Assembly: GCA_052033715.1 (NCBI GenBank)
Contig: JBPOJJ010000004.1
Coordinates: 1 to 52,671, forward strand
Origin: Patescibacteria group bacterium
GTDB lineage: Bacteria; Patescibacteriota; Minisyncoccia; Phycocordibacterales; CSBR16-119
Length of the DNA stretch: 52,671 nt
Direction: 5' to 3'
Each line of letters begins with the position of its first letter. Position 1 is the first letter of the stretch. Below are positions 11,877 through 44,368 of the stretch, piece by piece. Made by a program: the position numbers and the translations under genes. Below the pieces are notes generated by a model. The model saw only the letters and a list, made by a program, of their open reading frames with translations, was not told the origin of the DNA and ran no database searches.

Positions 11877-12602
11877 TTAGAAAGAAATTTTTGAATATCT
11901 TTCCACCCCAAACTGATCTTTCAGGGCTTCTATGTTTGGTGACAAAGATTTAATTTTCTCAGTTTGTTCTGGTTCGTGTTCTATATATAGAATTCCTCCT
12001 GGATTTAAATGTTTTGGTGCTTCGAGAATTATTTTTTCGATGATTTCCATGCCGTCTGTTCCTCCGAAGAGAGCAATCTCTGGTTCGTGAGTTTTTACGC
12101 TATTCTGGATCCTCTCGGAAAGCTTCGGATCGATGTACGGCGGATTGGTGAGAATCATGTCGTATTTCTCTGTAATATTTTCAAAAAGATCTCCTCCAAA
12201 TATATTTGTCCGATTCAAATCAATTTCGTTCTCTAAAATATTTTTATAGATAGTTTTGTGATGAATTTTATCTATTTCAACAAAGTCGACAACTGCTTCT
12301 GGAATTGCTTTCAACACAGCAACACCGATACATCCAGAGCCAGCGCAGAGATCGAGAACTTTTGGTTCGCGAATATTTTTCGACTTTAATTCTGAAGTAG
12401 CCTTTTCCACCCAATATTCCGTTTCGGGGCGGGGGATTAGGGGTCTCGAATCAAGCCATATTTTTGTATTGAGAAAGGGCGTCCAACCGATGACGTACGC
12501 CAGAGGCACTCCCGATTTGAGTAGAGATAGATCGGTTTCAAATTCTTCAGTTTTTATACCGGCGTATTTATCCTCTAGAAGCCAGGCTATTTCTTTTTCC
12601 AT
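11877..12602 (-). CDS. prmC: Release factor glutamine methyltransferase
   Basis: PLAYVIG, LIPRPETE, LDLCAGSGCI and TNPPY motifs. Start reassigned to 12602 because the longer ORF call runs through the tRNA. Confidence 0.9.
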   Translation of the reverse strand: MEKEIAWLLEDKYAGIKTEEFETDLSLLKSGVPLAYVIGWTPFLNTKIWLDSRPLIPRPETEYWVEKATSELKSKNIREPKVLDLCAGSGCIGVAVLKAIPEAVVDFVEIDKIHHKTIYKNILENEIDLNRTNIFGGDLFENITEKYDMILTNPPYIDPKLSERIQNSVKTHEPEIALFGGTDGMEIIEKIILEAPKHLNPGGILYIEHEPEQTEKIKSLSPNIEALKDQFGVERYSKISF

Positions 12603-12664
12603 AGATGCTAGAATCTTACACGTTATTGAATTCTCGGCAATCTTCTGGTATATTACAGCACATT

Positions 12665-12736
12665 GCGCGTGTAGTTCAGTGGTAGAACGCTGTCCTGATA
12701 AGACAGAGGTCGTAGGTTCGATTCCTACCACGCGCA
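12665..12736 (+). tRNA. tRNA-Ile (GAU); CCA not encoded
   Basis: Acceptor stem GCGCGTG/CACGCGC, anticodon arm CTGTC-CTGATAA-GACAG, T arm GTAGG-TTCGATT-CCTAC, A73 and C4:G69. Confidence 0.93.
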
Positions 12737-12805
12737 CCCCCTGGAGTTTGGAATTATTTTTTAGTGTATAATACTACAAGCTCTTGTCTGGGCTTTTTGC
12801 GTTTT

Positions 12806-13087
12806 ATGGAAGAAAAAGAACAAGAAAAAAACTTTAAACATACCCCTGAATATCAGAAGATCACTGATAAGGTTTTTCGCGCATCTCTTCTAAATATTCC
12901 GATTCTGGCTATCCCGGCCTTTGGCGCGTTATTTCTAGGGAAATTTCTAGACAACAAATTTGAAACGGGCAAGACGATAACTCTCATACTCCTGCTTCTC
13001 GCTATCGTGTTTTCTTGGATACTTATACTTCGAAAGAACAAGAAAATAAATCAGGAGTTTAAGAAGATCAGAGAAAATGGGCAATAA
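12806..13087 (+). CDS. AtpZ/AtpI-family membrane protein (ATP synthase gene 1)
   Basis: Two TM helices with G-FLD--F-T motif; first gene of the atp operon. Confidence 0.75.
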   Translation: MEEKEQEKNFKHTPEYQKITDKVFRASLLNIPILAIPAFGALFLGKFLDNKFETGKTITLILLLLAIVFSWILILRKNKKINQEFKKIRENGQ

Positions 13088-13092
13088 TTTTT

Positions 13093-13890
13093 ATGGAGGG
13101 AATTTTAAGTTTTAAAAGAGATATATCTACCGTCGGACCGTCAACGATTTTTAATATCGGCAATTTTCCTGTGGCCAATTCCACAATTTTTATACTGCTT
13201 ATAATTCTCATCGTTCTAATTTTTTCATATTTTCTTTTTAGGAACAAAAGTCTCGTTCCGACAAAAGCACAGGCCTTTTTTGAGATAGTGTACGAAGCTG
13301 TTGCCGCACAAATCCGAACCATCGCAGGTAGTGACTATCACGTCAACCGGGTTTTCCCAATCATAGCTTCGATATTCATATTCGTAGGAGTTTCAAATTA
13401 CCTCGGTATGGTTCCGGGACTATCGAGCATCACGTTTGACGGAGAATCGCTTTTTAGAACGGCGACAGGGGACTTCAACACCACATTTGGCCTAGCCTTT
13501 GGCTCGATTGTGGTTCTCCATATCATTTCGATTAAAGATTTTGGTATTTGGGGCCACCTCGGTAAATTCATACCGATAAAACAGCTCAGAAAAGATCTTA
13601 AAATGGGGGCCTTGAGTCCGATCTACATTTTCGTTACAATACTGATTGCTTGTCTTGATATTGTAGGAGAGTTTGCAAAGGTAATATCAATCTCACTTCG
13701 TCTCTTTGGCAACCTGTATGCCGGAGAGGTGATGACAACAATCCTGATAGGAATATTCGCTTTCGTGTTACCATCCTTCTGGATAGCCTTTGGGCTCCTA
13801 GGGTCTCTTATCCAGACCATAGTTTTTGGTTCATTGATCACGGTGTTTTATATGCAGGCTGCCGGCCCAGAACCCGGTAAACAAAGTTAG
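13093..13890 (+). CDS. atpB: ATP synthase Fo subunit a
   Basis: SISLRLFGNLYAGE motif (essential Arg); operon order. Confidence 0.95.
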   Translation: MEGILSFKRDISTVGPSTIFNIGNFPVANSTIFILLIILIVLIFSYFLFRNKSLVPTKAQAFFEIVYEAVAAQIRTIAGSDYHVNRVFPIIASIFIFVGVSNYLGMVPGLSSITFDGESLFRTATGDFNTTFGLAFGSIVVLHIISIKDFGIWGHLGKFIPIKQLRKDLKMGALSPIYIFVTILIACLDIVGEFAKVISISLRLFGNLYAGEVMTTILIGIFAFVLPSFWIAFGLLGSLIQTIVFGSLITVFYMQAAGPEPGKQS

Positions 13891-13920: not shown

Positions 13921-14136
13921 ATGGAAGCAGAAGCAGCAAAATACATTGCGAAAGGGCTAATTATCCTATCCATGCTTGGAACAGCGATCGGAGAAGGAAT
14001 TGTGGCAGGAAAGGCACTGGAAGCTATCGGTAGAAACCCGAGCGTAAGTGATTCTATCTTTTCCAAGATGATCGTCGGAATGGCCATCTGTGAATCAACA
14101 GCTATTTACGCGTTGGTCGCATTTTTCATTGTCTAA
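13921..14136 (+). CDS. atpE: ATP synthase Fo subunit c
   Basis: AIGRNP loop and AICESTAIY carboxylate helix. Confidence 0.95.
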   Translation: MEAEAAKYIAKGLIILSMLGTAIGEGIVAGKALEAIGRNPSVSDSIFSKMIVGMAICESTAIYALVAFFIV

Positions 14137-14149
14137 ATAAATATTAATT

Positions 14150-14635
14150 ATGGATGTTTTGGGAAAACTTGGTTTTGATTGGAAAGTCGCGCTTGCGAAC
14201 CTGGTTAACTTCCTAATTATTTATTACCTTCTTCGAAATGTCGTTTTCAAGAAATTGGGCGCGGCTATCAAAGAACGCCGAGAGAAAATCCAAACTGGAC
14301 TCGACGACGCTGAAAAAGCCAAAACGGCTCTCATGATGGCCAATCACGAAAAAGAACGCATCATCGGCGAGGGCCACCAGGAGTCGAAAGGGTTGTTACT
14401 CGAAGCCGAATCAAAGAAGGAGGCTATCGTTGAATCAGCCAAGATTGAGGCTGAGGCTGAGGCGCGCAAAATGAGAGAGTCGGCCATCAAAGAAATCGAG
14501 ATTCTTCGAGAACACCAGAAGAACGAGATCAAGAAAAAGTCCGTTGACTTAATTATTTCTGGCATCGAAAATGTTTTGAAGGAAAAAATAAATCCGAAAA
14601 AAACCGAAGACATTATTGGTGGATTAATCAAATAA
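14150..14635 (+). CDS. atpF: ATP synthase Fo subunit b
   Basis: N-terminal TM (NLVNFLII) followed by a charged coiled coil. Confidence 0.93.
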   Translation: MDVLGKLGFDWKVALANLVNFLIIYYLLRNVVFKKLGAAIKERREKIQTGLDDAEKAKTALMMANHEKERIIGEGHQESKGLLLEAESKKEAIVESAKIEAEAEARKMRESAIKEIEILREHQKNEIKKKSVDLIISGIENVLKEKINPKKTEDIIGGLIK

Positions 14636-14637
14636 TT

Positions 14638-15024
14638 ATGCTAGTTGCTTCAAAACAACTAGCCAACGCTCTGATATCATCGCTCGAAGAAGGTGCGGAA
14701 GTAGAGCCTTTGATAAAAAATTTTAAAGCCTTTGTTACTAAAAACCGTCTAACAGCCCTTGTGCCAAATGTCATAAAAAATCTAGAGAGGATGTCGGTCG
14801 AAGTTGATAGAAAAAACACTGCGCTGATTCGAGTCTCTCACGAAACGAAAGACGCTACGATCAAACTTATTGAAAAATTCATCGACAAGCAAAAGTCCGA
14901 CCAGAGTAAAGTAGAAGTGGACGAATCACTTATCGGAGGGTTCAGGGTAAATTACAGGGGTCGGGTGTTTGATGGAAGTGTCAAAAATTATTTAAAAGAG
15001 CTCCGAGCTAACTTAATGAAATAA
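14638..15024 (+). CDS. atpH: ATP synthase F1 subunit delta (short form)
   Basis: [11 protein letters not shown]...VFDGSVK motif; operon position. Confidence 0.88.
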
Positions 15025-15025
15025 T

Positions 15026-16531
15026 ATGAAAGAAGTTGATCAATTAGTTGCTAGTCTAAAATCAAAAATTGAAGGGGTGTCTCTGAAAGTTTCTTCCGAA
15101 GAAGTCGGAACGGTTGTTTCTGTTTCAGATGGTATTGCGCGCATAGCCGGACTTCCGACGGCTCAAGCCTCGGAGCTTCTTTCGTTTGAATCTGGCGCCA
15201 CCGGCCTTGCTCTCAACCTCGAAGAAGATTTCATTGGAGCCATTATCTTGGGCGAATTCAAGGGCGTCAAAGAGGGTGAGTCAGTCACGAGGACCAAAGA
15301 AATCCTTTCTATTCCAATAGGTAAGGGGATAGTCGGTCGTGTGGTCAACGCTCTCGGTGTTGCTATCGATGGCAAGGGAGATATCAAAACAGAAAAGAAA
15401 GTTTTGGTAGAAAAGGTAGCTCCGGGTGTTATGACTCGTGAGCCAGTTAACCAACCACTTCAAACCGGTATAAAAGCAATAGATGCCATGATTCCAATCG
15501 GCCGCGGTCAGCGTGAACTTATTATCGGCGATCGTCAGACCGGTAAAACCGCAATTGCTATCGATACAATTTTGAACCAGGCAGGTGAAAACATTATCTG
15601 CATATACGTCGCCATCGGCCAGAAACAGTCCAAAGTCGCTCGACTCGTATCGCGACTAGCTGAAGCCGGAGCGATGGATTACACTATCGTTGTTTCTGCG
15701 CCAGCGTCCGACTCTCCAGCCATGCTTTATCTAGCGCCTTATACCGGAGTCGCCATTGCCGAATATTTTATGGACAAGGGCCAAGACGTTCTCATCGTTT
15801 ACGATGATCTTTCTAAACATGCCGTCGCATATCGTGAAATCTCACTTTTGCTTCGACGTCCGCCGGGCCGCGAGGCGTATCCGGGAGACGTTTTCTATTT
15901 GCACTCAAGACTTCTCGAACGCGCTTGCCGCAGAAATGAAAAGTCAGGCGGCGGATCAATCACCGCGCTTCCAATCATCGAAACTCAGGGCGGTGACGTG
16001 TCTGGTTATATTCCGACAAACGTTATTTCGATTACGGACGGACAGATTTTCCTCGAAACAAGTCTCTTCTTCAAGGGTGTTCGTCCTGCAATCAACGCCG
16101 GACTATCAGTGTCGCGAGTCGGTGGATCAGCTCAGATAAAATCCATGAAGAAAAACGCTGGAACATTGAAACTTGCCATGGCACAGTATCGCGAACTTGA
16201 ATCTTTCGCCCAGTTTGACTCAGACCTCGATCCAGAGACGAAAAAAGTCATTGAGCGTGGTAAGAGAGTGACGGAACTTCTCAAACAAGGACAATATTCA
16301 CCGCTTCCAGTCGCGATGCAGGTTGTCTCGATTGTCGCTATCAACTCCGGATTATTCGATGCCTACGAAGTGTCAGAAATTTCGAGCGTTGAAAAAGAAC
16401 TTCATCAATATATGAAATCGTCTCAGGCCAAACTTTTAGAATCCATTAAAAATGATTGGAATGACGACATCAAAGCCGAACTCACAAAGGCACTAGAAAG
16501 TTTCAAGAAGAGTAATACAAAGAAAAAATAA
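15026..16531 (+). CDS. atpA: ATP synthase F1 subunit alpha
   Basis: [23 protein letters not shown] and ITDGQIFL motifs. Confidence 0.98.
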
Positions 16532-16534
16532 TTT

Positions 16535-17425
16535 ATGGGAGCAGATACCAAAGCCATTAGGCAAAAAATGAAATCGATCGGGAATATCAAGAAAATCACC
16601 AAAACAATGGAGATGGTATCGGTCGCGAAAATGAAAAAGGGAACTGAGATGGCCAACCGTGGACGCGCATATTCCAAATACGCCCTCGAGCTCGTTTCTC
16701 ATATTGCCGCCATGCCAGAGATCACACATCCGCTTTTGGCGCGCGAAGCCCTAGAGGGTCGCGAACTTGTCATCGTTATCTCATCGAACAAAGGCTTAGC
16801 CGGATCCTACAACACAAATATTTCCAAAGCTTTGTCTTTGTATACAAAAAATAAATCTGAAAATATCGACTGCATAACCCTCGGTAAGCAATCAGAAAAG
16901 TCAGCTCGCCGAAATAAGCTCAACATCGTAGCAAGTTTCATCACTTTCTCCGAGAAAAGCTCGTCCGATGAATTTCTAGTAATCCGTGACATGATTGTCG
17001 AAAAATATCTAAGCGGTGAATACGTCAAAGTCTCCATCCTTTTTACTGAATTTAAAAACGCCACAACTTACAAGCCATATCTAATGCAACTTCTCCCCGT
17101 CGCGCCGGAAGTTTACAAAAACGTCTTGCTCGAAGAAGAAGCCGGAACGTTCAAAGAAGAAAAGCTGGTTGATTACAAATTTGAACCAAGTGAAGGGGAA
17201 GTTTTAGCCCAAATTATCCCGCAAATTATCGCCACCGCCATTTATCATTCGTTCGTCGAATCGGTCGCTTCTGAACACTCTGCCCGAATGTTTGCGATGA
17301 AAAACGCGAACGACAATGCCGGCGAAATCCTTGATGACCTGACCCTCTTTTATAACCAAGCCCGCCAATCCGCCATCACCCAAGAGATTTCAGAAATTGT
17401 CGGAGGTGCAGCTGCCTTAAGTTAA
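16535..17425 (+). CDS. atpG: ATP synthase F1 subunit gamma
   Basis: KITKTMEMVS and SEHSARMFAMKNA...RQSAITQEI motifs. Confidence 0.97.
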   Translation: MGADTKAIRQKMKSIGNIKKITKTMEMVSVAKMKKGTEMANRGRAYSKYALELVSHIAAMPEITHPLLAREALEGRELVIVISSNKGLAGSYNTNISKALSLYTKNKSENIDCITLGKQSEKSARRNKLNIVASFITFSEKSSSDEFLVIRDMIVEKYLSGEYVKVSILFTEFKNATTYKPYLMQLLPVAPEVYKNVLLEEEAGTFKEEKLVDYKFEPSEGEVLAQIIPQIIATAIYHSFVESVASEHSARMFAMKNANDNAGEILDDLTLFYNQARQSAITQEISEIVGGAAALS

Positions 17426-17440
17426 CATTATCAGTATTAG

Positions 17441-18838
<1,398 letters not shown>

Positions 18839-18841
18839 GAA

Positions 18842-19267
18842 ATGGCCGACAAGACTTTAGAAATTAAAATTGTGACACCGGACAAAGTCGTTTACGACTC
18901 TTTTGGCGTAACGTCTATCACTATCCCGACAATGGACGGCGAAATCACGGTTCTGCCCAACCACATCCCACTAATCACACCAATCAAGACCGGCGAGGCG
19001 CATATTTTGAAAGACGGCGTGACGCTCGGCTTTGCCGTCTCTGGTGGAGTGCTTGAAATTCGCGAGGGTAACACTATCGTAATACTCGCTGAGCGCGGAG
19101 AGCTCGCACATGACATCGACGTCGCTCGCGCGGAGGATGCATACGAACGAGCCAAGCTTGCAATGAAAATGGAAATGGATGTTGCTGATGTCGACTTTGC
19201 GAAATTCCAAGGTCTCATGGAAAAAGAATTAAACCGAATCAATATTGGGAAGAAGTGGAGGAGATAA
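18842..19267 (+). CDS. atpC: ATP synthase F1 subunit epsilon
   Basis: IVTPDK, GEITVLPNHIP and FAVSGGVLE motifs. Confidence 0.95.
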   Translation: MADKTLEIKIVTPDKVVYDSFGVTSITIPTMDGEITVLPNHIPLITPIKTGEAHILKDGVTLGFAVSGGVLEIREGNTIVILAERGELAHDIDVARAEDAYERAKLAMKMEMDVADVDFAKFQGLMEKELNRINIGKKWRR

Positions 19268-43078: not shown

Positions 43079-44368
43079 ATGCCTAGCAACTTGATGGATT
43101 TACTGATACCGGCGATCTTCGTCCTGGGATATGCCGCTATCGCCTTTGAGCATCCACTCCGGATAAACAAGGCCGCCTCTGCTCTACTGACAGGATTCTT
43201 GGTGTGGACATTCTGCGCCATCAACATGGGGGGCGAACTTGCCTCCAAACACCTGGTAGAACACATGGGCGACATTTCAAGCATCCTGTTCTTCTTGCTG
43301 GGTGCCATGACTATAGTAGAGATGATCGACGTTCATGACGGTTTTCAGGTTCTTACTGACCGGACCAACGTCCGAAACAAGATCAAGCTCTACTGGTTTG
43401 TCGGCCTTGTCACCTTTTTCCTCTCAGCGGTGCTAGACAACATGACCACGGCAATCGTCATGTCAGCACTGCTTCGAAAGCTGATCAAGAATAAAGAGGA
43501 TCTGTGGAAACTGGCCGGCGTAGTCATCCTCGCGGCAAACGCTGGTGGTGCTTGGTCACCGATTGGTGACGTGACCACCATCATGCTGTGGATCGGTGGA
43601 CAGGTAAGCACGTGGAACATCATCCTGAAGCTTCTCTTGCCAAGCCTGGCCTGCCTAGTCGTACCGCTCTTGTGGTTGACCGCCACATCCCGAGGCAACC
43701 TTGAGCTAAACGCAAAAGAAGCGAGCGGGTTGAATAAGAACGGACTCAGTAAACGAGAAAAGTACCTAGTGCTTTCTCTCGGACTCGGAGCCCTACTTTT
43801 CGTGCCGGTGTTCAAGTCGTACACTGATCTGCCGCCGTTTGTTGGACTACTTGGTGGTTTGGGAATCATGTGGATCACCACGGAACTACTCCACCAACGT
43901 CATCCCAACTTTAGCGAAACCCGCCACCAGTTAGTGGTTACCTCGATCTTGCGGAGAGTGGACGTTCCGAGCGTCATCTTCTTCCTAGGAATCCTCATGG
44001 CTGTTGCCGGACTAGAAACCGCCGGATATCTCGAGAGCCTAGCAAGTTTCCTCGATAGCCGGATCGACAACGTCTATGCGGTCAATGTTCTGATTGGTGG
44101 TTTATCGGCCGTCGTAGACAATGTTCCGCTCGTCGCAGCATCTATGGGAATGTACCCTCTCGATGTTTACCCGACAGACCACATCTTTTGGGAGCTTTTG
44201 GCGCTCTGTGCTGGAACAGGTGGAAGCATGCTCATTATTGGTTCAGCTGCTGGTGTCGCCGTTATGGGCATCTTGGGGATTGACTTCGTGTGGTACATGA
44301 AGAAAATCGGACCCCTGGCTATCCTTGGCTACTTGGCTGGGATCGCGACATTTTGGTTGATGAACTGA
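43079..44368 (+). CDS. nhaD: NhaD-family Na+/H+ antiporter
   Basis: FEHPLRINKAASALL, LSAVLDNMTT, GGAWSPIGDVTT, SAVVDNVPLVA and GTGGSMLIIGSAAG motifs. Confidence 0.92.
   Translation: MPSNLMDLLIPAIFVLGYAAIAFEHPLRINKAASALLTGFLVWTFCAINMGGELASKHLVEHMGDISSILFFLLGAMTIVEMIDVHDGFQVLTDRTNVRNKIKLYWFVGLVTFFLSAVLDNMTTAIVMSALLRKLIKNKEDLWKLAGVVILAANAGGAWSPIGDVTTIMLWIGGQVSTWNIILKLLLPSLACLVVPLLWLTATSRGNLELNAKEASGLNKNGLSKREKYLVLSLGLGALLFVPVFKSYTDLPPFVGLLGGLGIMWITTELLHQRHPNFSETRHQLVVTSILRRVDVPSVIFFLGILMAVAGLETAGYLESLASFLDSRIDNVYAVNVLIGGLSAVVDNVPLVAASMGMYPLDVYPTDHIFWELLALCAGTGGSMLIIGSAAGVAVMGILGIDFVWYMKKIGPLAILGYLAGIATFWLMN

What the first reader, a model, noticed from the sequence alone, without database searches (positions are those of the whole stretch)
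13921..14136. ATP synthase c subunit carries a two-carboxylate Na+-binding signature
Seen: E25 (IGEG) and E58-S59-T60-x-x-Y63 (CESTAIY), with the glutamates 33 residues apart. Known: the Na+ site of the Ilyobacter tartaricus and Propionigenium modestum c ring is Q32/E65/S66/T67/Y70, and Fusobacterium nucleatum has E32 instead of Q32. Inference: this is a Na+-coupled F-ATPase in a respiration-poor, probably episymbiotic cell. This fits the AtpZ/I gene at the operon head and the NhaD antiporter in the window.
Basis: partly seen in the sequence, partly recalled or inferred. Interest (0 to 1): 0.65.

Follow-up and report, generated by a model that had tools for sequence, protein, structure and literature searches.

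The report
Sodium-type ATP synthase rotor subunit
The rotor subunit of this tiny bacterium's ATP synthase carries the full sodium-binding site known from Fusobacterium, so the enzyme probably runs on sodium; that enzyme type is already known, but two species of the same genus carry a proton-type membrane part on the same enzyme head, so the ion-handling part is exchanged as a cassette.

Summary
ORF 13921-14136 is the only ATP synthase c subunit of a 0.6-Mb Patescibacteria (Paceibacteria) genome. E25, E58, S59, T60 and Y63 align without gaps to E32/E65/S66/T67/Y70 of the Fusobacterium nucleatum Na+ ring, at 48% identity.

The motif is held as a unit. 116 of the 120 closest homologues and 16 of 18 genomes of the same family have it. 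Across 103 Patescibacteria c subunits the extra ligands are almost all-or-none.

It is a new member of a known kind. A 70%-identical Parcubacteria protein is already named "sodium ion specific" in public records. Na+ coupling is inferred, not shown. With low external Na+ the enzyme may carry H+.

An addition: two species of the same genus carry H+-type a and c subunits (32-33% and 42% identity). Their alpha and beta (beta for G452 only) are 82-93% identical to the window's. The switch lies inside atpF, at about window 14285-14345. So the membrane module (AtpZ-like, a, c, b anchor) is exchanged as a cassette.

NhaD is real. Its link to Na+-type rotors rests mainly on this one family. I found no respiratory complex or other primary ion pump. 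This favours an ATP-driven Na+ pump.

The parts
12664..12739 (+). tRNA-Ile(GAT). It is the conserved left landmark of the variable Fo membrane module.
   Evidence: ARAGORN and Rfam tRNA at 78 bits. The same tRNA-Ile lies upstream of the atp operon in same-genus genomes G452 and G521. It is 95-99% identical at DNA level in G521 and G522.
12764..13087 (+). Small two-helix AtpZ/AtpI-like protein at the operon head. The true start is probably the ATG at 12806.
   Evidence: PF09527 gives 26.0 bits against a cut-off of 26.6, E = 9e-6. Two hydrophobic helices are predicted. A homologue is present in 18 of 18 Na+-type loci and 5 of 26 H+-type loci. It is absent from the H+-type sister operons. A hairpin plus T-run at 12778-12795 follows the tRNA.
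13093..13890 (+). F-type ATP synthase a subunit of the Na+-type module lineage.
   Evidence: PF00119 at 126 bits. R203, N207 and Q241 align with E. coli R210, N214 and Q252. All a subunits next to Na+-type c subunits score at least 189 bits to it. All those next to H+-type c subunits score at most 136 bits.
13921..14136 (+). F-type c subunit with a complete two-carboxylate Na+-site motif. Codons: E25 at 13993-13995, E58 at 14092-14094, S59 at 14095-14097, T60 at 14098-14100, Y63 at 14107-14109.
14150..14635 (+). b subunit (atpF), a mosaic gene. Residues 1-48 (membrane anchor) belong to the Na+-type module. The rest groups with the H+-type sister species.
   Evidence: PF00430. Identity in 16-residue bins: Na+-type relatives are 88-100% identical over residues 1-48, then 30-60%. 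H+-type G523 and G452 are 12-38% identical over residues 1-48, then 81-94%.
14285..14345 (+). Crossover zone inside atpF (codons about 46-65), a stretch conserved in all species of the genus.
   Evidence: In a sliding 30-nt DNA comparison, identity to G523 and G452 rises from 0.3-0.5 to 0.8-0.93 here. Identity to Na+-type relatives falls after about 14345-14375. The blastn match to G523 starts at 14288.
14638..15024 (+). Delta (OSCP) subunit, short at 128 aa. It matches only positions 51-172 of the 172-position Pfam profile.
   Evidence: and NCBIfam. It is 70% identical to H+-type G523 and 40-47% identical to same-genus Na+-type genomes.
15026..19267 (+). F1 genes: alpha (15026-16531), gamma (16535-17425), beta (17450-18838), epsilon (18842-19267).
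   Evidence: Pfam. Alpha, gamma, beta and epsilon are 83, 72, 91 and 76% identical to H+-type G452. They are 80-81, 59-69, 89-91 and 63-73% identical to Na+-type G521 and G520.
43079..44368 (+). NhaD-family Na+/H+ antiporter, 429 aa with about 10 TM helices.
   Evidence: NF038006 at 166 bits against a cut-off of 80. TIGR00775 at 380 bits, below its equivalog cut-off of 577. PF03600 at 115 bits.

Best explanation
This is the c (rotor) subunit of a canonical F1Fo ATP synthase whose ion site is of the Na+-binding, two-carboxylate type.

In the assembled ring, each site between neighbouring hairpins would hold one Na+. By homology to F. nucleatum, the ligands would be:
- E58 and E25, with E25 staying protonated and behaving like the Gln of Ilyobacter;
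- the S59 hydroxyl;
- the backbone carbonyl of I56;
- a water held by T60;
- Y63, which locks E58.

R203 of the a subunit would strip the ion as the ring turns.

I found no respiratory chain and no other primary ion pump in the genome. The enzyme therefore most likely hydrolyses fermentation-derived ATP to expel Na+. This would build a membrane potential and a sodium-motive force. NhaD could convert that force into a pH gradient or use it for pH and Na+ homeostasis.

What is shown: gene identity, operon, residue equivalence, conservation, module exchange and gene inventory. What is inferred: Na+ binding, ion choice in vivo and direction of operation.
For: 1. All five side-chain positions are identical to the crystallographically defined Na+ site of F. 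nucleatum, in an ungapped alignment with 30 of 62 residues identical.
2. The motif meets the published rule of helix-1 E/Q plus E[STQ][STQ]xxY.
3. The best solved-structure matches are the Na+ rings of A. woodii (71 bits), F. nucleatum (51.8) and I. tartaricus (47). The H+-type c of the sister species instead matches best a c subunit with an H+-type site (9itj; Ile in helix 1, E-A-L-A-I-F in helix 2). Its next single-hairpin matches are the cyanobacterial ring 2wie and chloroplast rings, though A. woodii c1 ranks second in its list.
4. The motif is conserved: 116 of 120 nearest homologues and 16 of 18 family genomes. The ligands are all-or-none across 103 Patescibacteria c subunits.
5. The a subunit co-varies perfectly with the c type and keeps the essential Arg.
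6. There is one rotary ATPase in the genome. Of 61 predicted proteins with at least 4 TM helices, 44 were scanned, including every one with at least 6. None is a respiratory complex, Rnf/Nqr, decarboxylase pump, PPase or P-type ATPase.
7. Pentose-phosphate and glycolytic genes lie in the window.
8. NhaD is present. In this family it occurs in 9 of 16 Na+-type genomes and in neither of the 2 H+-type genomes.
Against: There are no biochemical data.

All c rings, including that of F. nucleatum, are intrinsically H+-selective. They use Na+ only when it is in large excess. Record titles of relatives point to river water and wastewater.

Sequence-based prediction has failed before. The B. pseudomallei N-type ring was predicted to be Na+-coupled and found to be H+-coupled. 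However, it has T-M at +1/+2, not S-T.

Two positions next to the ligands differ from the solved rings: C57 for Ala and A61 for Gly.

The direction of operation is inferred only from failing to find other pumps. Pfam can miss novel ones. One membrane cytochrome b5 / d1-like protein is unexplained.
Confidence: 0.6

Rival explanations
1. The site can bind Na+, but in the organism's habitat (low Na+, neutral or acidic pH) the enzyme carries H+ most of the time, or switches between the two ions. It would be a promiscuous Na+/H+ rotor.
For: Even the F. nucleatum ring is H+-selective and depends on a large Na+ excess. Relatives carrying this module come from river-water and wastewater metagenomes, judging by record titles. 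From memory, not checked here: the Propionigenium modestum enzyme pumps H+ below about 1 mM Na+. Promiscuity has been reported for Synechocystis and Methanosarcina enzymes.
Against: The four extra polar ligands are kept all-or-none across lineages. They are replaced wholesale when an H+-type module is installed. That pattern is hard to explain if they were not used. The reported promiscuous rings lack one ligand, whereas this one has the full set.
Confidence: 0.25
2. The enzyme works mainly as a Na+-driven ATP synthase. It would harvest a sodium gradient made by something else, for example a host cell, the environment, or NhaD running on an external pH gradient.
For: The epsilon subunit keeps its C-terminal inhibitory helix domain (PF00401), typical of enzymes that restrain hydrolysis. 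Helix 1 has Ala/Met in place of two Gly of the GxGxGxG packing motif, and some family members have all-Ala versions. This may give larger rings suited to low driving force (inference). A 2026 preprint links short delta subunits in CPR to large rings and low potentials.
Against: No Na+-generating primary pump was found among the membrane proteins scanned. NhaD is missing from 7 of 16 Na+-type family genomes.
Confidence: 0.2
3. The motif is phylogenetic inheritance without present function. The ring would be an H+ rotor that merely retains ancestral Na+ ligands.
For: Mulkidjanian et al. regard the Na+ ligand set as ancestral and repeatedly lost. One order-level relative (G178) of the same c lineage has lost the S/T ligands: Q...E-A-I-A-I-Y.
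Against: That same example shows the ligands decay when not needed. Here they are intact in 116 of 120 homologues, down to 66% identity. Only 1 of 103 c subunits is intermediate.
Confidence: 0.07

Closest known systems
Fusobacterium nucleatum F1Fo c11 ring with two-carboxylate Na+ site (PDB 3ZK1/3ZK2; Schulz et al. 2013, PMC3692424)
   Same: It has the identical ligand set, E (helix 1) / E-S-T / Y, at the same spacing of 33. The alignment is ungapped with 48% identity over 62 residues. It sits in a canonical F-type operon of an anaerobe without proton-pumping respiration.
   Different: The window's c subunit is 71 aa rather than 89 aa, with no C-terminal extension. Next to the site it has C57 and A61 in place of Ala and Gly. 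The helix-1 packing motif is M-x-G-x-A-x-G-x-G instead of G-x-G-x-G-x-G-x-G, so ring size may differ from 11. No Na+-generating decarboxylase was found. Nothing has been measured.
Ilyobacter tartaricus / Propionigenium modestum Na+ c11 ring (PDB 1YCE)
   Same: E-S-T and Y in helix 2, and the same spacing. An atpI-type gene stands at the operon head (the operon layout is from memory).
   Different: It has Gln, not Glu, in helix 1. Identity is 39%.
Acetobacterium woodii Na+ F-ATP synthase, c1/c2/c3 hybrid ring (PDB 4BEM)
   Same: It is the best-scoring solved relative, at 71 bits for c1. It is a Na+-type F-ATPase.
   Different: A. woodii mixes a double-hairpin c1 with single hairpins, and uses Q and E-T-S/E-T-T. 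This genome has one single-hairpin c gene.
Burkholderia pseudomallei N-type ATPase c17 ring (Schulz et al. 2017, PMC5376962) and other H+-coupled two-carboxylate rings (Mycobacterium, Streptococcus pneumoniae)
   Same: A second Glu in helix 1 together with the helix-2 Glu and Tyr.
   Different: Those rings lack the S/T pair. B. pseudomallei has E61-T62-M63. They are H+-selective. The window has S59-T60. The operon here is not N-type.
Public annotation 'ATP synthase C chain, sodium ion specific' for Parcubacteria protein KKR39108.1/KKR47590.1, and the 2026 preprint on rotary ATPase evolution (10.64898/2026.10.01.756066)
   Same: The annotated protein is a 70%-identical homologue of the same clade. 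The preprint applies the same motif rule across F-ATPases and notes short delta subunits in CPR.
   Different: I found no text in either that describes within-genus exchange of the a-c-b(anchor) module. Other pipelines label these same proteins 'H+-transporting'.

Membership tests
F-type ATP synthase subunit c (PF00137 / TIGR01260) | Profile match above the curated cut-off | tested here: met
   PF00137 gives 62.8 bits against 24. TIGR01260 gives 53.5 bits against 43.95.
F-type ATP synthase subunit c (PF00137 / TIGR01260) | Two-helix hairpin with a polar R-N/Q-P loop and a carboxylate in mid helix 2, encoded between atpB and atpF | tested here: met
   Two hydrophobic helices, loop GRNP at 37-40 and E58. 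Gene order is a-c-b-delta-alpha-gamma-beta-epsilon.
Na+-binding c ring (Ilyobacter/Fusobacterium type) | Glu or Gln in mid helix 1, 33 residues before the helix-2 Glu | tested here: met
   E25 aligns to E32 of F. nucleatum and Q32 of I. tartaricus.
Na+-binding c ring (Ilyobacter/Fusobacterium type) | E[STQ][STQ]xxY in helix 2 | tested here: met
   E58-S59-T60-A-I-Y63. The rule is quoted from the preprint.
Na+-binding c ring (Ilyobacter/Fusobacterium type) | Na+ protects the ring from DCCD/NCD-4, and ATPase and ion transport are Na+-dependent | not testable with these tools
   This needs biochemistry.
Two-carboxylate subtype (F. nucleatum) | Glu rather than Gln in helix 1 | tested here: met
   E25. 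Among the 120 nearest homologues, 107 have Glu, 12 have Gln and 1 has Ile at this position.
Two-carboxylate subtype (F. nucleatum) | The helix-1 Glu is constitutively protonated and is not a second transported charge | not testable with these tools
   For F. nucleatum this was shown by structure, simulation and transport assays.
N-ATPase (Dibrova et al. 2010) | A separate operon (atpDCQRBEFAG) with AtpQ/AtpR and no delta, present in addition to a normal F- or A-type operon | tested here: not met
   The F-type gene order is canonical and includes delta. There is only one c gene in the genome. The 'alternate F1F0' models score far below their cut-offs: TIGR03322 at 40.9 against 130.85, and TIGR03306 at 63.6 against 302.1.
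NhaD Na+/H+ antiporter | Curated family model above its cut-off | tested here: met
   NF038006 gives 166.2 bits against 80. The stricter TIGR00775 equivalog gives 380 bits against 577 and is not reached.
AtpZ/AtpI (PF09527) | Profile match above the gathering score | tested here: inconclusive
   26.0 bits against 26.6, E = 9e-6. The position at the operon head and the two helices fit.

The most novel reading that the evidence does not exclude
In this Paceibacteria family the membrane half of Fo (AtpZ-like protein, a, c and the membrane anchor of b) behaves as a recombining cassette. It is exchanged between close relatives through a conserved stretch inside atpF and the tRNA-Ile upstream. This flips the coupling ion between Na+ and H+ while the stalk and F1 head stay in place. 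The window's operon would itself be such a mosaic: its stalk and F1 are sister to an H+-type species, and its membrane module matches Na+-type species of three genera. If so, phylogenies of catalytic subunits cannot be used to trace ion specificity, and coupling-ion choice is a fast, ecologically tuned trait.
Probability: 0.5. Interest if true: 0.7.

Novelty: new member of a known kind. Interest (0 to 1): 0.45.

Why it matters
How ultra-small, non-respiring Patescibacteria energise their membrane is an open question. A Na+-pumping F-ATPase gives a concrete and testable answer for this lineage, and shows that the generic label 'H+-transporting' may be wrong for it.

The within-genus swap provides a natural matched pair: the same F1 and stalk with a Na+-type or an H+-type a-c-b(anchor) module. 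That pair could be used to ask what else, besides the c-ring ligands, sets ion specificity, and which habitats select each type. It also cautions against mapping ion specificity onto trees of catalytic subunits, as was done in the 'sodium first' argument.

Tried and rejected
1. A degenerate DNA pattern for the motif was run over 401 genomes of the phylum. It gave about as many chance hits as its reversed control. Only the 9 hits that overlapped PF00137 sites were usable, so 9 of 256 is a lower bound.
I therefore have no habitat, Na+ or expression data.
3. I searched solved structures with the a subunit, hoping to compare it with a Na+ enzyme. The type-specific a-subunit columns remain uninterpreted.
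4. The NhaD co-occurrence looks strong in raw counts (p = 2e-5), but it collapses outside the family (p = 0.22). I do not count it as independent support.
5. N-ATPase membership was rejected.
6. GC content shows no clear foreign signature for the module.
7. Assembly chimerism as the cause of the mosaic was rejected. Two H+-type and five Na+-type genomes of the genus independently show the two arrangements on contigs of up to 328 kb. The crossover stretch is only 80-93% identical, too divergent for an assembler to join.
8. A look-up of earlier scan notes by sequence found nothing.
9. I made no structure prediction. A monomer cannot show a site that lies between subunits.

Full report
**1.

Window 13921-14136 (+) is an ATG-started 71-codon ORF. 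It is preceded by the a subunit and followed by b, delta, alpha, gamma, beta and epsilon. All match their Pfam families above cut-off.

The protein matches PF00137 at 62.8 bits (cut-off 24). It is the only c-subunit gene in the 606,241-bp, 12-contig, about 97%-complete genome.

**2. Comparison with characterised rings**

Among all solved structures, the best matches are three Na+ rings:
- Acetobacterium woodii c1, 71 bits;
- Fusobacterium nucleatum 3ZK1, 51.8 bits;
- Ilyobacter tartaricus 1YCE, 47 bits.

The alignments to the last two have no gaps. They place E25/I56/E58/S59/T60/Y63 on E32(Q32)/V63/E65/S66/T67/Y70. Identity is 30 of 62 residues to F. nucleatum.

In the F. nucleatum crystal structure:
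- Na+ is bound by E32, E65, the S66 hydroxyl, the V63 carbonyl and a water held by T67;
- Y70 and S66 hydrogen-bond to E65;
- E32 is constitutively protonated, so only Na+ is transported.

The window's protein also meets the sequence rule used in a 2026 preprint: helix-1 E/Q plus E[STQ][STQ]xxY.

H+-coupled rings that also have two carboxylates lack the S/T pair. The Burkholderia pseudomallei N-type ring has E30/E61-T62-M63/Y66. It was predicted to use Na+ but proved H+-selective. The motif here therefore does not group with demonstrated H+ rings.

The operon is not an N-ATPase. Its gene order is canonical, delta is present, it is the sole operon, and the 'alternate F1F0' models score far below their cut-offs.

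**3. Conservation and distribution**

| Sample | Result |
|---|---|
| 120 closest homologues (66-100% identity) | 116 keep the full motif: 105 with Glu and 11 with Gln in helix 1 |
| Same GTDB family (20 genomes, 4 genera) | 16 of the 18 with a c gene have E...E-S-T-A-I-Y |
| Same order (121 genomes) | 59 have any c subunit: 7 full Na+ motif, 1 of the same lineage with S/T lost (Q...E-A-I-A-I-Y), 46 H+-type (G-I-G ... E-A-[LIV]-A-I-[FY]), 5 only a V-type double hairpin |
| Phylum (401 genomes) | 256 have a c subunit; at least 9 carry the strict motif |

- Distant a-subunit relatives in genomes titled Candidatus Peribacteria and Nomurabacteria also sit next to G-E-G...E-S-T c subunits.
- Over 103 collected c subunits, 50 have all four extra ligands, 52 have none or one, and 1 is intermediate. 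The site therefore behaves as one selected unit.

**4. Novelty of the Na+ reading**

A 70%-identical Parcubacteria homologue (KKR39108.1/KKR47590.1) is already named 'ATP synthase C chain, sodium ion specific' in public records. Other pipelines call the same clade 'F-type H+-transporting ATPase subunit c'.

Full-text searches found no paper that discusses Na+-type F-ATPases in Parcubacteria or Paceibacteria. The Vampirococcus paper looked for the motif in Absconditabacteria and did not find it. The 2026 preprint maps predicted ion specificity on F-ATPase trees that include CPR.

Earlier notes of this scan, which are AI leads and not evidence, had already flagged Na+-type and H+-type Fo cassettes in other Patescibacteria. 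The c subunit is therefore a new member of a known kind.

**5. What the surroundings add: a swapped membrane module**

Two species of the same GTDB genus, G452 and G523, carry an H+-type c subunit (G-L-G ... T-E-A-V-A-I-Y). The table gives percent identity to the window's proteins. For G523 the alpha value covers the N-terminal 200 residues only.

| Protein | G452 (H+) | G523 (H+) | Na+-type congeners G519-G522 |
|---|---|---|---|
| a | 32 | 33 | 75-78 |
| c | 42 (over 38 residues) | 42 | 76-93 |
| AtpZ-like | absent | absent | 47-83 |
| delta | 49 | 70 | 40-47 |
| alpha | 83 | 93 | 77-81 |
| gamma | 72 | not held | 59-69 |
| beta | 91 | not held | 89-91 |
| epsilon | 76 | not held | 63-73 |

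Flanking genes of G452 are 58-84% identical to the window's.

The b subunit is a mosaic:
- Residues 1-48 (the membrane anchor) are 88-100% identical to Na+-type relatives and 12-38% identical to G523 and G452.
- From residue 49 onward, identity is 81-94% to G523 and G452 and 30-60% to the Na+-type relatives.
- At DNA level the switch lies at window 14285-14345, a stretch conserved in all species of the genus.
- The left landmark is tRNA-Ile(GAT), present in the window, G452 and G521.

The a subunits sort perfectly by the type of the neighbouring c: at least 189 bits against at most 136 bits to the window's a.

Trees give the same picture:
- A tree of b(soluble) + delta + alpha(1-200) recovers the genera and makes the window sister to H+-type G523 (SH-aLRT 99).
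- The a-subunit tree puts G452 and G523 on a very long branch outside all Na+-type sequences. It also mixes Na+-type sequences of three genera.
- AU tests on the stalk/F1 alignment reject a clade of all Na+-type congeners (p = 0.0004). They also reject an H+-only clade that excludes the window (p = 0.02, a group named after seeing the tree).

At least two module exchanges must therefore have occurred within this genus. I could not fix their direction.

Assembly artefact is unlikely. Seven independent genomes show one or the other arrangement, and the crossover stretch is not identical between the types.

**6. Physiological context**

A hydropathy screen predicted 61 proteins with at least 4 TM helices. 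I scanned 44 of them, including every one with at least 6 helices. They are mostly housekeeping proteins:
- SecY, SecDF, YidC, FtsW/RodA, MraY-like, MurJ;
- flippases, ComEC, a ZIP transporter, an MFS transporter, an AI-2E transporter, ABC transporters, peptidases.

Four gave no family match, and one is an unexplained membrane cytochrome b5 / d1-like protein (section 8). I found no respiratory complex, Rnf/Nqr, decarboxylase pump, pyrophosphatase or P-type ATPase. The window also encodes RpiB, class-I aldolase, Rpe and a split transketolase. This favours an enzyme that spends fermentation ATP to pump ions.

The gene at 43079-44368 is a NhaD-family antiporter: NF038006 at 166 bits against a cut-off of 80.

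NhaD is rare in the order, at 5 of 121 genomes, one of them a weak match. In the family it occurs in 10 of 20 genomes. Nine of those have Na+-type c subunits, none has the H+ type, and one has no detected c gene. The raw contrast is 10/22 against 1/47, p = 2e-5. It falls to 1/6 against 1/45, p = 0.22, outside the family. It is suggestive only.

The AtpZ/AtpI-like ORF scores just below Pfam's cut-off. It accompanies 18 of 18 Na+-type modules and 5 of 26 H+-type modules. From memory, not checked here: AtpI assists assembly of the Na+ c-rings of P. modestum and A. woodii.

**7. Mechanism, rivals and limits**

Most likely (0.6): a Na+-coupled F-ATPase acting mainly as an ATP-driven Na+ pump, with NhaD interconverting Na+ and H+ gradients where it is present.

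Main caveat: Na+-type rings remain intrinsically H+-selective and need a large Na+ excess. Record titles of relatives point to river water and wastewater. H+ use or mixed use is therefore plausible (0.25).

Operation in the synthesis direction on an external or host-made gradient cannot be excluded (0.2).

Only biochemistry can settle the question: Na+ protection from NCD-4/DCCD, Na+-stimulated ATPase and 22Na+ transport.

**8. Seen in passing**

- Delta has only 128 residues and lacks the N-terminal third, as in the sister species. The 2026 preprint notes short deltas in CPR.
- Some family members replace the helix-1 Gly motif with A-T-A-P-A-E-A.
- A 717-aa membrane protein with cytochrome b5 and cytochrome d1-like domains lies on another contig.

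Noticed in passing
window 14638-15024: The delta (OSCP) subunit has only 128 aa and matches only positions 51-172 of the 172-position Pfam profile, so the N-terminal domain that normally caps alpha is missing. The H+-type sister species G452 also has a 128-aa delta. A 2026 preprint links short deltas in CPR to large c-rings and possibly extra stalks.
   Followed up: partly
G000 contig C3:64192-66342 (-), locus L005: A 717-aa protein with about 6 N-terminal TM helices, a cytochrome b5-like haem domain and a cytochrome d1 (NirS-like) eight-bladed propeller (239 bits). It is the only candidate membrane redox protein seen in a genome where I found no respiratory chain.
   Followed up: no
loci L108 (G519), L106 (G530), L107 (G525): In three family members the helix-1 packing motif G-T-A-I-G-E-G is replaced by A-T-A-P-(A/S)-E-A-W, while E and E-S-T-A-I-Y are kept. 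All-alanine versions of this motif are associated with larger rings in alkaliphilic Bacillus (from memory).
   Followed up: no
locus L064 (G178, same order): This c subunit belongs to the Na+-type lineage by overall similarity (120 bits to the clade profile). It has Q in helix 1 but E-A-I-A-I-Y in helix 2. It looks like a natural case of ligand loss within the Na+ lineage.
   Followed up: no
family loci L092-L108 (a-subunit tree): Na+-type a subunits do not follow genus boundaries. Five genomes of genus g436 and one of g435 carry a module 72-77% identical to the window's. Three other g436 genomes carry a 48%-identical Na+-type variant. Na+-type modules too seem to be exchanged between genera.
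   Followed up: partly
order and phylum samples: 62 of 121 genomes of the order and 145 of 401 of the phylum have no F- or V-type c subunit at all. About half of these organisms therefore lack a rotary ATPase.
   Followed up: no
window 11877-12737 (-) and 12664-12739 (+): The mechanical ORF for the PrmC-like methyltransferase runs through the tRNA-Ile gene on the opposite strand. The real gene probably starts near 12602 or earlier. The methyltransferase is missing at this position in G452, which instead has a VanY/M15 peptidase, a beta-lactamase-family gene and two ORFs of unknown function between prfA and atpB.
   Followed up: partly
window 12778-12795: A hairpin plus T-run directly after tRNA-Ile overlaps the first codons of the GTG-started AtpZ-like ORF. 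This suggests the protein starts at the ATG at 12806 (93 aa).
   Followed up: no
locus L029 and L065 (G476, same order): One genome carries two different single-hairpin H+-type c genes on separate contigs.
   Followed up: no
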